Shown here: positions 6,001 through 12,000 of the stretch, piece after piece
Numbering within the stretch: position 1 is the stretch's first letter
Layout: every line of letters starts with the position of its first letter
IMG/VR virus record: IMGVR_UViG_2913182230_000001
Coordinates: 1-42,074 of that record
Reading direction: 5' to 3' (one strand)
Length of the DNA stretch: 42,074 nucleotides
Source: a virus
Lineage: Duplodnaviria; Heunggongvirae; Uroviricota; Caudoviricetes
Program-made: the position numbers

Positions 6001-9000
6001 CAATTTCATTCCAGATGTCAGGCGATATGCTTCTGCAAAATATCGCTTCAAATCATCCATGTTTTCTGCCTGAGCCATTTCATCACAAAGAAGTTGTGCT
6101 TTTTCCATAATTTCCTGCTGGCGTTTCCGTTCATCTTCGCGGATATCTTCCTCTGATTTGTGCGGCATAACTGGTTCCTGATGCATACCTTCATCTTCGT
6201 TAAGCAGGTGAATGGCATTATCCAGTCGCTGGGCTTTAGGCCAGTATTTGCTGGCGCGTTTAACTATTGTTTTACGCGCCATCTCTTCCCAGAATGTCTT
6301 CCACGGTCCATTCTTTGCCTTGCTCGTTGCTTCCACAGCTTTAATTTCTGCCAGACTCATTTCTTCAGTGAGGTAGTCACCATCTGCTGTTTTAACCGTA
6401 CAATAACCACCAACAATAGAGCCTCGCTCACCAAATGCGTTGTATTTGTGGGTTGGTGCTGAATCAAGGCCGTTTGATTCATAGGTGTCGTTTGAGTACA
6501 CCAGTTTGCATTGCCCCCACTTAATTGATCCTGTCGACTGTGCAAGGTGAAGTAATCCCATGTAACTGATATCAAGGCACACCATGCCGTCGCGAGGAAC
6601 CAGATAAGCCAGTTTGCTGGCCGGGTTTAAGGTGATGCCGATAGCCGCAACATTGATGATGGCGTTCTGTGCGCTGGTTGGATTTGCCAGTGCTGTTTTA
6701 GCCAGGTAATCGTTTTTCTGGAAATACTGAATTGCAAACTGGCTTTCCTTAGCCCATGTCACCGTCTGTTCAGTCAATGCTCCGCAGAATAACTGCTCTT
6801 GCTGTTTAACGAATTCAACGATATTGCTCATGCAGCTTCTCCAAAAATGTGTCTGCGTTTGAATATTGCGAAGGCATATTCAGCCTTAACTCTTTCGGTT
6901 ATTGCATCCCAGAACCATTCAGCGGCTTTTTCCTGATAGTCACAGTCATCATCTTCCAGCCAGTCGATAGCGTCCTTAGTGTGTTCATCTGGTTTATATG
7001 AGCGAAGCATTTCGCTTATTGGGTCGCAACGTTTGCAGAGGCGATCAACTTCACTGTTGATTCGTTCGTAATCTTCATCAGTAAAACTTGCGATTATTTG
7101 CGATATTTCACGCTTATCATTCAGAGTCAGAATCATCATCTTTCTCCTGTTCTTTGTGCTGATTGAGCATTTTGTTCATCTGACGAATGAATTCTTCGTC
7201 TGACCAGTTATCTGTAAAACTCATTTCCTGCGATACCACGGAAGGTTGATAGCTGATTTCATCGTTTTATTTGCTTCAAGCCACATTTTGGAATCACCAA
7301 TAAATCTGGCTATTACTGCTTTGTTTTGTGCCGCACGAAGCATCTGGTGATTGATGGCTATTTCATCGCGCATAATAAGACCTCAACTCTTTTCCATCCG
7401 TCACGTAATTTACGGGTGATTCGTTCAAGTAAAGATTCATTTAATTGGAAGGCACCCATGCGAGCGCCTCCCGCGATTGCGTAAATCATGGGTGGTTCCT
7501 TATGTTGGTTTTATTAGTAGGCTATTTTTGTTGCGAATACTTCGCCTTTTACGATGGCTGTTATGATATTTTTAGCAACATCTTCTGATGCACCAACCTT
7601 GATAAGGTCAGCAAGTATTTTGTTATTTACTTCTTTCCGGTGAGCTTTATCCTTTGCTCTACGCTCTTCTTCTTCCTTGATTCTTTTTTCTTCTGCTATT
7701 CTGGCTTGCTCTTTTGCTTCAGCCTCGCGCCGGATTCGTTCAGCCTCCTCCTGTGCTTTTCTGCGTTCTGCTTCAATTGCTGCCTGCTTTTCTCTTTCAG
7801 CTCGTTCTGCTGCCTCTTTTGCTTCGCGCTGTGCTCTCTGCTCGGCTTCAATGCGTTCACGCTCTGCACGTTCCGCTGCGGCCTTAGCTTCTGCTTCTCG
7901 CCTTGCTGCTGCTTCAATTTCGGCTTTTGCCTTTTCTTCGGCTTCAGCTCTGGCTTTCTCTTCAGCTTCTCTTTTTAAGCGTTCTTCATGCTCTCGCTTT
8001 TCCTGCTCCGCTTTGAGTCTTGCCTCTTCTCTTTTACGGTCAAATTCGCGATCCATCAAAATCGCTATTTCATGGTCAGACTCAATTTGCTTTGCAAGAG
8101 CTTCAGCTGCTGCCTTAGCTTCTTCTTCGGCTTTAATCCGTGCCTGTTCCTCCTCATAATCAGTAAGAGGCTGGCGCGCCTTGGCTTTCAGTTCATCAAG
8201 GCGATCACGCACTGTCTTGCGGTTAGCATCAATTAGCTTTGGAATTTCCTTCAGTTCAGCAACAAGGTCTTTGCCAAGACCATCGAGATATGTTTTCGTC
8301 TGCGCAACTTTATACGCCAGAGAAGCGATCTCCTTTCTGCCCTTTGCCGTTGTGATATCAGGCACAAAGGACATAACTTCACGTTCAACCTTTTGAAGGA
8401 TTTCTTCAATCTGGTCGGCAGACTGAAATACAGTCATTGCATTTGATTTTTCAATAACAACTAAATCTGTTACTTCACTCATATATCCTCCGTCAAAAAA
8501 TTGCCCTCACACTGGAGGGCAAAGAAGATTTCCAATAATCAGAACAAGTCGGCTCCTGTTTAGTTACGAGCGACATTGCTCCGTGTATTCACTCGTTGGA
8601 ATGAATACACAGTGCTTATTCGTACTAATAAAACACCCAATTTTCTGTTTCTTGGTTGTGTCCAAAGTTATATTCAATATCTGGTGTTGATGTATCAATA
8701 TTCTTCATCCCATCAACAAGAGTTGATACAACAGCCAAATCTTGTTTGATTCTCATCAAATGGTATTTCTTTCGGCGCAATAAACTTTCAATGGCAAGTT
8801 TCTTCGTCGGGAATGCAAAAGATCTTTCTGCATTTTTTGCTACTTTCTTAATTGCATATCTATTTCTCCTTTGTTTCCATTCCTGTAACCACTGATTTGG
8901 TGCTGGTTTAAAATTAACAATCCAATGCGCAGGAACCAACCATGCATAATGCTCTGTCTGATGAAAAGCTATATATTGAAGTGCGAATATTTTTATCCCA

Positions 9001-12000
9001 TCTTCTTCAACTGTCGCCTGGAATCTCCAGAAAACAGGCATTCCATCATGTTCAGTTTCTGATTCAGGAAAAGGTACGCTCCATGATTTTGTCATATCTC
9101 ACCTCAAATAAGTGGTTTGCTGCCTAATTTCATTTTCTGGCGACCAACACAAGTTACACCCATTTCACTGCGTGGCTTGCTGTAATAAATTCGGTTAGTT
9201 CAGACAATAAAAAACCCACCGAAGTGGGCTATGACCATTTTTTATTTGGATTTCGTTGGTGAGCGTGGTTAACAACTCTGTGCATTACATCCTCATATTT
9301 TTCATCTGCAATTTTTTCTACATCTCGAGGAAATGGTGTTGCTAATGCTTTGTCAACTTTGTCCATTGGGTCTTCATTAATATTATATTCCGGACCGTCA
9401 TCTATAGCATTAAATCCAGGTGTTACACCGTTTTCTAATGCATATGCCATTCTCTTTTCCCATCTCGCTATTCTCCTTCTGTCTTGAGATGTAAGACCTC
9501 TATCAAATACTTTCCTGTTTTGTCCGCAGTTAGGGTTAACATAGATAGTCTTTTTCACCATAAGCATACTCAATAAGCACCGTACGGTGGTTTACTATAC
9601 AATCTTATTCTTTGAACTGCATGTATCTTGTTTCCTAATGGGTTTAAATCCTTGTAGTAAACCCTCCTATTTTTTTGCTCGACTTCATCTACTTTCTTGC
9701 AGAGAAGGCTGCCAAGTGATGCTGCTTTGTCTGCTCTGACGCAACCAGAGAGTTTTAGCGCAATCTTTCGCGCCAGTCTCTGTTCTTTCATTGCCTGTTC
9801 ACGTTGAGCCTGTCTGCGTGCTCTGCGGCGATTTCTGGCGTTATCGTCAGCCAGATATGTAATGACTACTGTCATGTTGACCTCCGATGATTGACTTTAG
9901 CGGTGACGTAACTGGGGGAGGGAGGTTAACTCCCTGATGCTGTTGCGCGGCTGCACTTTACGTCACCCCAAAGCCAACTACTCTTTGGTTCCCGCATTTC
10001 GGCGGGACAATCCCATCAATGTTAAAGAGCCTGCCAATCTGTTCCGTTTGGCTACCAGCGTCCTGCTGATGACTTAAATTTAAGATTTCTTTAATTAATG
10101 GTCAAGGGTATTTTTGAAGAAAACTTAAATTTTATTGCGAAGTTTAAGTTTTGCTTTGATTTTTAAAGGAAAGAAAAAAGGGGCGAATGCCCCTTATGGA
10201 AGGTTTGCTATTTTTGCATCGACAACTACACCGATGATTTTGCAGTTCCCGTTGATCTCAATCATCGGATATTGTGGGTTAAGTGGTTTTAGAAACCTTC
10301 TGCCAGCATCAATAACTAACTTCTTGAAAGTTGCCTCGTTTTCTCCTTCGAGCTTTGCCACTACCAGCTTCCCATTACGAGGTTCTACTTCAGGATCGAC
10401 TAGTATTATCATCCCTTCCGGGATGCTAAGACCGGCTGGAGCCGTCATCGAATCCCCCTTTACGTCCAGCCAAAACGAATCTTCTGAACAATCTACGGTT
10501 GTATCGTACCAGTTATCTATTGCACGCTTATGATATGGCTCTACAGCTTCCATCCAACATCCTGCGCTTACCCAACTAATTAGAGGATACGAACCTCTTG
10601 GATCATGCCTGCTGTGATAGGCAATGTTTGAAAGACTATCTTCTCCTTTCAACAAGTAATCAGGGGAGCACTGCAAAGCCTTGGCTAAGGCCAATAGGTT
10701 TTCGCCATTGGGCTCAGTTTCAGAACGCTCCCATTGGGAAATAGCAACATTAGACACGCCAACCATCTTGCCAAGGGCAGCCTGCCTAATCTTGAGTTCT
10801 TTTCTGCGAGCGCGAATACGCTCACCCATCAGTTGTGTATTCATAGTTAAGACATCTTAAATAAACTTGACTTAAGATTCCTTTGATAGATAATTTAAGT
10901 GTTCTTTAATTTCGGAGCGAGTCTATGTACAAGAAAGATGTTATCGACCACTTCGGAACCCAGCGTGCGGTAGCTAAAGCGTTAGGCATTAGCGATGCAG
11001 CAGTCTCTCAGTGGAAGGAAGTCATCCCAGAGAAAGACGCCTATCGACTGGAAGTCGTTACAGCTGGCGCCCTGAAGTATCAAGAAAGTGCTTACCGCAA
11101 AGCGGCATAAGCAAATTGCTCTTTAACAGTCATGGTCCTCATTCCCGCCGAAATGCGGGAATACAACGCGCATCAGTTGGTGCGTATAACTTCTTATTTG
11201 TTAAGGAAATACTTACATATGCAACTTACAAGTACTCGCAAGAAAGCGAATGCAATCACAAGCAATATCCTAAATCGAATTGCTGTACGTGGTCAGCGAA
11301 AGGTTGCTGATGCATTAGGGATTAATGAATCGCAAATTTCGCGATGGAAAGACAGCTTTATCCCAAAGATGGCCATGCTTTTGGCTGTGCTGGAGTGGGG
11401 TGTTGAAGACGAGGAATTAGCAGAGCTGGCAAAGAAAGTAGCCATGGTGCTGACAAAAGAAAAGCCTCAAGACTGCTGCAACAGTTTTGAGGCCTGATGT
11501 AGAAAGACTGGATCAATCCACAGGAGTAATTATGACAAAACGTCGTAAGAAATACCAGGAAAAAGAAGAGATTCGACACCCTGATTCACCTGAGGGATTA
11601 GTGGTAGCCGCAGCAAATAACAGGGCGTTCGCAGAGCGCCTTGTTGGTGTTTACAGACTAGCCAAAGCAGGAGTGAAACATGGGCGTCGTTAAGTTAGCT
11701 GATTACAGGCCTCAACTGGAGGTCGTGGAGCATCGCGTGGCAGATACCGAAGATGGTTTCATGCGCGTTGCTAACGAGATTACCGACAGTCTGCTGATGG
11801 CTGATTTAACTGTCCGGCAGTTGAAGGTGATGCTCGCTATCATGCGCAAGACATACGGATTCAATAAGCCGATGGATCGACTCACAAACACGCAGATAGC
11901 AGCCATGACAGGTATTCATCACACTCATGTTTGCGCTGCCAAGCGCCAGCTTATTGAGCGTAAATTCCTCATTGCTGATGGCGTGAAAATAGGAGTGAAC

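What the first reader, a model, noticed from the sequence alone, without database searches (positions are those of the whole stretch)
8494..9230. AT-rich gene bracketed by two intrinsic terminators in the pL operon
The 8625-9095 ORF (156 aa) is visibly more AT-rich than its neighbours and sits between terminators at 9205-9230 and 8494-8522, in the stretch between N and cIII. In lambda and P22 this stretch carries lysogenic-conversion and exclusion functions such as ral and sieB. The protein has no recognisable motif.
Basis: partly seen in the sequence, partly recalled or inferred. Interest (0 to 1): 0.55.

Follow-up and report, generated by a model that had tools for sequence, protein, structure and literature searches.

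The report
Uncharacterised early phage gene after N
The AT-rich gene is real but already on record (HK97 gp45, 933W L0079): an early accessory gene of unknown function, not a prophage-expressed add-on, and its two flanking terminators are known elements that belong to neighbouring modules.

Summary
ORF 8625-9095(-) is 36.3% GC against 48.5% for the window, and well-formed intrinsic terminators lie at 9205-9230 and 8494-8522, between N and cIII.

The gene is not new. It is 99-100% identical to HK97 gp45, 933W L0079 and phi24B vb_24B_11c (PHROG 1636), all annotated as hypothetical.

The bracket is composite:
- The upstream terminator belongs to an HK022-type nun cassette inserted between N and the ORF.
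- The downstream hairpins and terminator are the lambda tL2a "boundary sequence", identical in lambda, Sf6 and HK97. They occur in 325 phage records, against 87 that carry the ORF.

No promoter was found. In 47 of 76 related prophage loci the ORF follows N within 80 nt or less, with no terminator between. Published phi24B RNA-seq shows 43-fold induction, like exo, bet and gam, and unlike cI and stk.

A confident model (pLDDT 95.5) matches no solved structure, only uncharacterised phage proteins.

Best reading: a pL-driven early accessory protein occupying the slot that holds ral in lambda. It probably acts on the host or against host defences; the function is unproven.

The parts
8625..9095 (-). 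ORF156: 156-aa soluble basic protein, the same protein as HK97 gp45, 933W L0079 and phi24B vb_24B_11c (PHROG 1636)
   Evidence: ORF call. 99-100% identity in 85 phage records. PHROG 1636 match at E 2.7e-112. AF2 pLDDT 95.5. pI 9.07, with residues 61-125 at pI 11.1. No membrane segment.
9099..9105 (-). Shine-Dalgarno sequence GAGGTGA for ORF156, overlapping the TGA stop (9104-9106) of the N relic
   Evidence: Read from the sequence. The same junction lies 8 nt after intact N genes in at least 19 loci, and in L011.
9104..9184 (-). Relic of the 3' end of a second N allele (…SEMGVTCVGRQKMKLGSKPLI*). It forms the conserved left flank of the cassette slot.
   Evidence: In-frame translation. Identical to the C-terminus of the 99-aa N upstream of ORF156 in other prophages. 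The megablast breakpoint falls at 9184.
9205..9230 (-). Intrinsic terminator of the nun cassette (stem 9213-9230 with a UUCG loop, then a U run)
   Evidence: dG -10.3 kcal/mol. The HK022 nun match starts at window 9212.
9229..9573 (-). HK022-type nun (transcription termination and exclusion factor), inserted between N and ORF156
   Evidence: PHROG 5632 match at E 8.8e-67. About 90% DNA identity to HK022 nun. Ends in NPNKKWS.
9570..9875 (-). N-type antiterminator gene, first gene of the pL operon
   Evidence: PHROG 271 match at E 2.8e-29. Annotated as N in mEp235.
9991..10030 (-). Putative nutL: a boxA-like GCTCTTTAAC at 10021-10030 and a hairpin at 9991-10006
   Evidence: Read by eye. The equivalent mEp235 position is annotated as boxA. 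Inferred, not tested.
10077..10105 (-). Candidate pL promoter (TTGACC, 17-nt spacer, TAAATT)
   Evidence: Consensus scan, 9 of 12 positions matched. The position matches Sf6 pL, between the repressor gene and N.
8494..8615 (-). Conserved backbone element: 12-bp hairpin (8583-8610), a second hairpin, and the terminator (stem 8501-8522, U run 8495-8500). Equivalent to the lambda tL2a region and the Sf6 'bsq4' boundary sequence. It forms the right flank of the cassette slot.
   Evidence: Invariant in lambda, Sf6, HK97, Sp5 and mEp235. Sf6 annotation reads 'terminator, homology to lambda tL2A' and 'boundary sequence'. Present in 325 phage records. RNA fold z -5.06. Terminator dG -13.2 kcal/mol.
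7514..8482 (-). Next pL gene: 322-aa protein rich in Glu, Ala and Lys (Sf6 gp33 family, PHROG 1376, function unknown)
   Evidence: A homologue also follows the ORF156 homologue in Rosenbergiella.

Best explanation
ORF156 is an accessory gene of the lambdoid early-left (pL) operon. It lies in the exchangeable slot between the antiterminator gene N and the conserved tL2a terminator, which is where lambda and Sf6 carry ral.

It has no promoter of its own. It is transcribed from pL when repression is lifted, on infection or induction. In its commonest and apparently original arrangement it follows N directly. Its ribosome-binding site overlaps N's stop codon, and the first terminator comes after it. 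In that arrangement it would be made together with N, before antitermination is needed.

In this window a nun-plus-terminator cassette has been recombined in between N and the ORF. Here the gene should need N-modified polymerase to be reached. The same terminator should also keep any nun transcription in the prophage from running into it.

The product is a soluble 18.6-kDa protein. It has a beta-sheet in the first half (strands 19-55, plus a short strand at 83-86), a strongly basic middle and a 33-residue helix. The fold is seen only in phage proteins.

The inferred function has not been shown. I take it to act early in the lytic or infective phase by binding a nucleic acid or a host protein, as a host-takeover or counter-defence factor, and not as a lysogenic-conversion or exclusion function.
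For: Architecture:
- In 47 of 76 E. coli prophage loci that carry the ORF156 gene (88 copies, 30 nucleotide alleles), an N-type gene ends 80 nt or less upstream with no terminator between. 72 of 73 loci have a terminator within 170 nt downstream.
- Homologues at 83% and 71% identity (L011, L012) lie 8 and 3 nt after N. Each is followed at once by a different intrinsic terminator.
- In the L013/L015 phage type the homologue is the first gene behind a strong TTGACG-17-TATAGT promoter.
- Window 9104-9184 is a relic of an N gene's 3' end.
- The nun cassette and its terminator are of HK022 origin.
- The downstream element is identical to lambda tL2a and Sf6 bsq4.
- Other occupants of the slot are ECs_1180 (Sp5), an Nmad5-domain protein (mEp235), and gp36-ral-gp34 (Sf6).
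- ral never co-occurs with ORF156 in 81 loci.

Expression:
- No promoter match lies between 9096 and 9204.
- In phi24B the identical gene vb_24B_11c rises 43-fold on norfloxacin induction. exo rises 98-fold, bet 89-fold, gam 137-fold and ssb 79-fold. cI (1.23), stk (1.81), res (1.16) and bor (1.43) do not move (PMC4651098 Table S4; identity).

Protein:
- AF2 gives pLDDT 95.5 and pTM 0.82 with the 71-sequence alignment.
- 12 BFVD matches at E 0.001 or better are all uncharacterised phage proteins, from phages of Erwinia, Achromobacter, Delftia, Rhizobium, Sinorhizobium, Cellulophaga and Tenacibaculum.
- A distant relative lies in a run of small, mostly unannotated genes in Pantoea phage LIET2. 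Others lie in the recombination-to-integrase operons of marine prophages.
- Residues 61-125 have pI 11.1. There is no membrane segment.
Against: - No experiment on this protein was found, so the function is inferred from position, timing and composition alone.
- The phi24B fold change has P = 0.273. This is the same value as for exo, bet, gam and ssb, and it comes from a small experiment in which spontaneous induction confounds the uninduced signal.
- A consensus scan can miss weak or non-sigma-70 promoters.
- In Pectobacterium and Brenneria prophages the homologue sits far from N, between a terminator and xis. Immediate-early timing is therefore not universal.
- A basic protein is not a DNA mimic, so it cannot work the way Ocr or ArdA do.
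- The PADLOC negative only excludes defence families known by 2023.
Confidence: 0.6

Rival explanations
1. Moron or lysogenic-conversion reading. ORF156 is an independently expressed cassette, insulated by its two terminators. It is made in the lysogen and excludes or restricts other phages.
For: - AT-rich composition typical of acquired cassettes.
- Flanked by terminators here and also in Pectobacterium and Brenneria prophages.
- The slot also holds sieB in lambda and nun here, both exclusion functions.
Against: - No promoter match upstream. The upstream spacer is an N-gene relic.
- Both terminators belong to other modules.
- The identical gene in phi24B behaves as an induction-dependent pL gene.
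- No membrane segment.
- No PADLOC hit.
- A relative in a run of small, mostly unannotated genes in Pantoea phage LIET2, and structural relatives in phages of several other hosts.
Confidence: 0.12
2. Developmental regulator. The protein tunes the phage's own early programme. It might help or stabilise N, or bias the lysis-lysogeny choice as the exo-xis genes do, by binding RNA, DNA or the transcription machinery.
For: - Tight physical linkage to N and probable translational coupling.
- First gene behind an operator-flanked early promoter in L013/L015.
- Basic core.
Against: - It is linked to at least three unrelated N alleles. It also occurs in phages and positions without N. This argues for shared timing, not a specific partnership with N.
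- It is dispensable: lambda, Sf6, mEp235 and Sp5 lack it.
Confidence: 0.2
3. Restriction alleviation specifically. ORF156 is a functional stand-in for Ral and protects incoming unmodified DNA from type I restriction.
For: - Same slot as ral, and never found together with ral in 81 loci.
- Another occupant of the slot carries an Nmad5 DNA-modification-associated domain.
- The ral accessory region is known to hold counter-defence-associated genes (bioRxiv 10.1101/2023.04.06.535777).
Against: - No sequence or fold similarity to Ral, Ocr or ArdA.
- Mutual exclusion follows trivially from sharing one slot.
- The ORF156 peptide was not found in the text held for that screen's supplementary files, so it does not appear to have been among the 200 genes tested.
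Confidence: 0.15

Closest known systems
HK97 gp45, 933W L0079 (ST933Wp19), phi24B vb_24B_11c; PHROG 1636
   Same: The same protein at 99-100% identity. In those phages it lies directly after N and before the same terminator.
   Different: Here a nun-plus-terminator cassette separates it from N. None of these entries has an assigned function.
Lambda, P22 and Sf6 ral (restriction alleviation)
   Same: Occupies the same N-to-tL2a slot of the pL operon. Small, non-essential and expressed early.
   Different: No sequence or structural similarity. 156 aa against 66 aa. Anti-restriction activity was not tested.
Lambdoid morons (for example HK97 gp15) and lambda sieB
   Same: AT-rich, flanked by a terminator, and present or absent between otherwise related phages.
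   Different: No promoter of its own. Induction-dependent expression in phi24B. Soluble, not membrane-bound.
Lambda tL2 terminator cluster and the Sf6 'bsq4' boundary sequence
   Same: Window 8499-8615 is base-for-base the same element.
   Different: None. It is a backbone element and is not part of the ORF156 cassette.
HK022 nun and its terminator
   Same: About 90% DNA identity, including the terminator stem.
   Different: Here nun coexists with an N gene, as in mEp235, mEpX1 and PA28. From memory, HK022 lacks N.

Membership tests
PHROG 1636 (HK97 gp45 family) | Full-length profile match | tested here: met
   E 2.7e-112 over residues 1-156 of 156. All 71 members of alignment A2 match it.
Moron (autonomous promoter-gene-terminator cassette expressed from the prophage) | Own promoter immediately upstream | tested here: not met
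   No sigma-70 match in 9096-9204. The spacer is a relic of the N gene's 3' end. In other loci the gap to N is only 3-58 nt.
Moron | Expression in the repressed lysogen | tested here: not met
   Published RNA-seq for the identical gene in phi24B shows 43-fold induction, like the other pL genes. This was not measured for this prophage.
Moron | Terminator of its own downstream | tested here: inconclusive
   A terminator is present. It is the shared tL2a backbone element, found in 325 records against 87 with the ORF. L011 and L012 have a different terminator directly after the stop codon.
Moron | Atypical base composition | tested here: met
   36.3% GC against 48.5% for the window, 2.4th percentile.
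Ral restriction-alleviation family | Sequence homology to Ral | tested here: not met
   No family of any kind reaches Pfam's threshold. Lambda and Sf6 Ral used as tblastn queries find nothing in the window.
Ral restriction-alleviation family | Alleviation of type I restriction | not testable with these tools
   Needs plating assays.
SieB/SieA-type superinfection exclusion | Membrane protein | tested here: not met
   Maximum Kyte-Doolittle score over 19 residues is 0.56, GRAVY is -0.59. The AF2 model is a globular alpha/beta fold.
Known anti-phage defence systems (PADLOC 2.0) | Profile match to a defence protein | tested here: not met
   Best hit is Cas1_II at E 0.018, 12 bits, which is noise.
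Lambda tL2a / bsq4 boundary element (downstream terminator) | Sequence identity and position between the N-proximal accessory genes and the ea10 or gp33 gene | tested here: met
   Invariant block in lambda, Sf6, HK97, Sp5 and mEp235. Sf6 annotation.
Any solved protein fold | Significant structural match | tested here: not met

The most novel reading that the evidence does not exclude
The HK97 gp45 / PHROG 1636 superfamily is a new class of early phage effector with a fold not yet solved. In lambdoid phages it would be made together with N from the first leftward transcript. It would neutralise a host defence or take over a host nucleic-acid process, by a mechanism unlike the known DNA-mimic or Ral-type anti-restriction proteins. 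That would also give a role to a gene carried by very many Shiga-toxin prophages.
Probability: 0.3. Interest if true: 0.6.

Novelty: already known. Interest (0 to 1): 0.33.

Why it matters
The exact protein was seen on at least 1000 contigs. It is carried by HK97, 933W, phi24B, H-19B and many Stx1 and Stx2 phages. Yet it has no function, no Pfam family and no structural relative.

If it is a counter-defence or host-takeover factor made alongside N, it would affect how Shiga-toxin phages establish themselves in new hosts. It would also add a new fold to the anti-defence repertoire.

As it stands, the finding mainly re-describes catalogued elements: a known hypothetical gene, the lambda tL2a terminator and the HK022 nun terminator. 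The useful correction is that the 'bracket' of terminators is a product of mosaic recombination and not a sign of an insulated cassette.

Tried and rejected
- Family and sequence searches. Pfam, NCBIfam and PADLOC scans of ORF156 and of the 71-member family, and PDB sequence searches with both profiles, gave nothing.
- First structure prediction. The 20-sequence alignment gave a poor model (pLDDT 59.5). It was replaced by the 71-sequence run.
- RNA families. Rfam found only the tRNA in the whole window, and nothing credible in 8300-10300.
- The 3'-UTR hairpin. I considered it as an element specific to ORF156, either an sRNA or a binding site. I rejected this because the same element follows other genes in lambda, Sf6, Sp5 and mEp235, and it is absent after the L011 and L012 homologues.
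- Apparent fusion proteins P0066 and P0080 are repeat artefacts.
- Literature. Searches for L0079, phrog_1636, NP_037731, vb_24B_11c and HK97 gp45 found no characterisation. The OLD-sentinel preprint is not relevant.
- Silas et al. screen. orf184 of the ral accessory region was checked and is a different protein, starting MEALVVERSEDGYWT. The ORF156 peptide was not found in the text held for that paper's supplementary files. Phrase searches on the PDB text failed for technical reasons.
- Locus scans. The distant alignment A2 could not be used to scan for loci. The genome-contig scan gave only 7 loci.
- The two 417-aa ORFs at the ends of the window are unrelated.
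Full report
**Observation**

The ORF at 8625-9095 on the minus strand encodes 156 aa. It starts with ATG, preceded by GAGGTGA. Its GC content is 36.3% (GC3 28.7%) against 48.5% for the window, which puts it in the lowest 2.4% of 471-nt windows. The neighbouring nun gene is equally AT-rich.

Both reported terminators are present on the minus strand and are well formed:
- Stem 8522-8501 followed by U6, dG -13.2 kcal/mol, z -3.6.
- Stem 9230-9213 with a UUCG loop followed by U6, dG -10.3 kcal/mol, z -4.1.

The local order on the pL strand is as follows:
- C2/cI-type repressor, 10194-10844
- its terminator, 10178-10195
- candidate pL, 10077-10105
- putative nutL, about 9991-10030
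- N, 9570-9875
- nun, 9229-9573
- terminator
- ORF156
- terminator
- a 322-aa gene, 7514-8482
- cIII, 7358-7489
- kil

**What the gene is**

The protein is 99-100% identical to HK97 gp45, 933W L0079 (ST933Wp19), phi24B vb_24B_11c, an unannotated ORF of H-19B, and ORFs in dozens of Stx1 and Stx2 phages. All are annotated as hypothetical. The exact sequence was seen on at least 1000 contigs. It matches PHROG 1636, a family of unknown function, over its full length. It matches nothing in Pfam, NCBIfam, PADLOC or the PDB sequence set.

Close homologues, down to 55% identity, are confined to Enterobacterales. An exhaustive profile search found 87 representatives, including a distant family of about 140-150 aa. 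All 71 aligned members hit PHROG 1636. Codon variants among the fetched alleles are mostly synonymous, 44 against 25.

**Structure**

With the 71-sequence alignment AlphaFold gives pLDDT 95.5 and pTM 0.82. The model has long beta-strands at 19-55, short helices, a strand at 83-86, a 33-residue helix at 98-130 and a C-terminal tail.

The protein is soluble, with maximum Kyte-Doolittle score 0.56 over 19 residues. Its pI is 9.07, with a very basic core (residues 61-125, pI 11.1) and acidic ends.

**The bracket is composite**

*Downstream.* Window 8499-8615 holds a 12-bp hairpin, a second hairpin and the terminator. This block is base-for-base identical in lambda (between ral and ea10), Sf6, HK97, Sp5 and mEp235. 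In Sf6 it is annotated 'bsq4; boundary sequence' and 'terminator, homology to phage lambda; tL2A'. It occurs in 325 phage records, whereas ORF156 occurs in 87. It also follows different genes: ECs_1180 in Sp5 and an Nmad5-domain protein in mEp235.

*Upstream.* The terminator at 9205-9230 comes with nun; the HK022 match starts at window 9212. The 88 nt between it and ORF156 translate in frame to …SEMGVTCVGRQKMKLGSKPLI*. That is the C-terminus of an N allele which, in other prophages, ends 8 nt before ORF156.

The two terminators therefore belong to neighbouring modules. ORF156 sits in an exchangeable slot bounded by the 3' end of N and by tL2a.

**Arrangement elsewhere**
- Among 76 E. coli prophage loci carrying this gene (the fetched copies fall into 30 nucleotide alleles) with enough flank, 47 have an N-type gene ending 80 nt or less upstream with no terminator between. 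About 12 have the nun cassette. 72 of 73 have a terminator within 170 nt downstream.
- Homologues at 83% and 71% identity (L011, L012) lie 8 and 3 nt after N. Each is followed immediately by a different intrinsic terminator.
- In another temperate phage type (L013-L015) the homologue is the first gene behind TTGACG-17-TATAGT, flanked by TGACGTAGA repeats.
- In Pectobacterium and Brenneria it lies between a terminator and xis.
- In marine prophages it lies in the recombination-to-integrase operon.
- In Pantoea phage LIET2 it lies in a run of small, mostly unannotated genes.

**Expression**

No sigma-70 match lies between the nun terminator and the ATG. Published RNA-seq for phi24B (PMC4651098, Table S4) lists vb_24B_11c at 43-fold on norfloxacin induction, P 0.273. 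In the same table exo, bet, gam and ssb rise 79- to 137-fold with the same P value. cI, stk, res, vb_24B_13c and bor stay at 0.65- to 1.8-fold. This fits a pL-operon gene and not a lysogen-expressed one.

**Most likely mechanism**

Shown:
- ORF156 is a pL-strand accessory gene in the N-to-tL2a slot.
- No promoter was detected upstream of it.
- In most contexts it is placed so that it would be transcribed with N before the first terminator.
- Here a nun cassette separates it from N.

Inferred:
- In this phage it needs N antitermination to be reached.
- It is insulated from any nun transcription in the prophage.
- It acts early, by binding a nucleic acid or a host protein, as a host-directed or counter-defence factor.

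The ral-containing accessory region has been recognised as holding counter-defence-associated genes (bioRxiv 10.1101/2023.04.06.535777). The ORF156 peptide was not found in the text held for that screen's supplementary files. The orf184 described there is a different protein. ORF156 and ral never co-occur in 81 loci, as expected for alternative occupants of one slot.

**Rivals**
- A lysogen-expressed exclusion moron: 0.12.
- A regulator of the phage's own development or a helper of N: 0.2.
- A specific Ral analogue: 0.15.

Evidence for and against each, and what would refute it, are given in the dedicated fields.

**Novelty and verdict**

The gene, both terminators and the slot are already on record. 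What remains unknown is the function of a very common protein that is restricted to phages and has no solved structural relative. Interest is modest.

Noticed in passing
window 9229-9875 (-): The phage carries both an N-type antiterminator and a full-length HK022-type Nun that ends in NPNKKWS. The two reading frames overlap by 4 nt. mEp235, mEpX1, Kapi1 and PA28 have the same arrangement. How a phage that uses N tolerates its own Nun was not examined.
   Followed up: partly
window 9104-9184 (-): An in-frame relic of the 3' end of a second N allele (…GRQKMKLGSKPLI*). Its TGA stop overlaps the Shine-Dalgarno sequence of ORF156. This marks the recombination junction that brought in the nun cassette.
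   Followed up: yes
window 8499-8615 (-): A 12-bp perfect hairpin, a second hairpin and a terminator that fold far better than shuffled sequence (z -5.06). The block is invariant from lambda to Sf6 (tL2a / bsq4). Whether this very conserved structured RNA does more than terminate and serve as a recombination linker is open.
   Followed up: partly
window 7514-8482 (-): A 322-aa protein with a central Glu/Ala/Lys-rich stretch (Sf6 gp33, PHROG 1376, function unknown; mis-annotated as 'TolA' in one record). A homologue follows the ORF156 homologue behind a terminator in Rosenbergiella as well (L100).
   Followed up: no
L097 4721-4972 (Sp5 ECs_1180) and L098 1820-2443 (mEp235 gp37): Other occupants of the same slot after N: an 83-aa protein of PHROG 2471 (function unknown), and a 207-aa protein with an Nmad5 (nucleotide-modification-associated) domain, Pfam E 3.7e-72.
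   Followed up: partly
L013 about 4880-5000 and L015 about 700-824: In a roughly 48-kb phage type that carries a ParB-like gene, the ORF156 homologue is the first gene behind a near-consensus promoter (TTGACG-17-TATAGT). Two TGACGTAGA repeats flank the promoter and look like operators.
   Followed up: no
window 1369-1444 and 1459-2622: A tRNA-Thr(CGU) lies directly beside the integrase gene, so the prophage appears to be integrated at a tRNA-Thr gene.
   Followed up: no
window 41000-41900: The lowest GC content of the whole window (about 30%) falls inside the 417-aa ORF at the right end (40821-42074, minus strand). Not examined.
   Followed up: no
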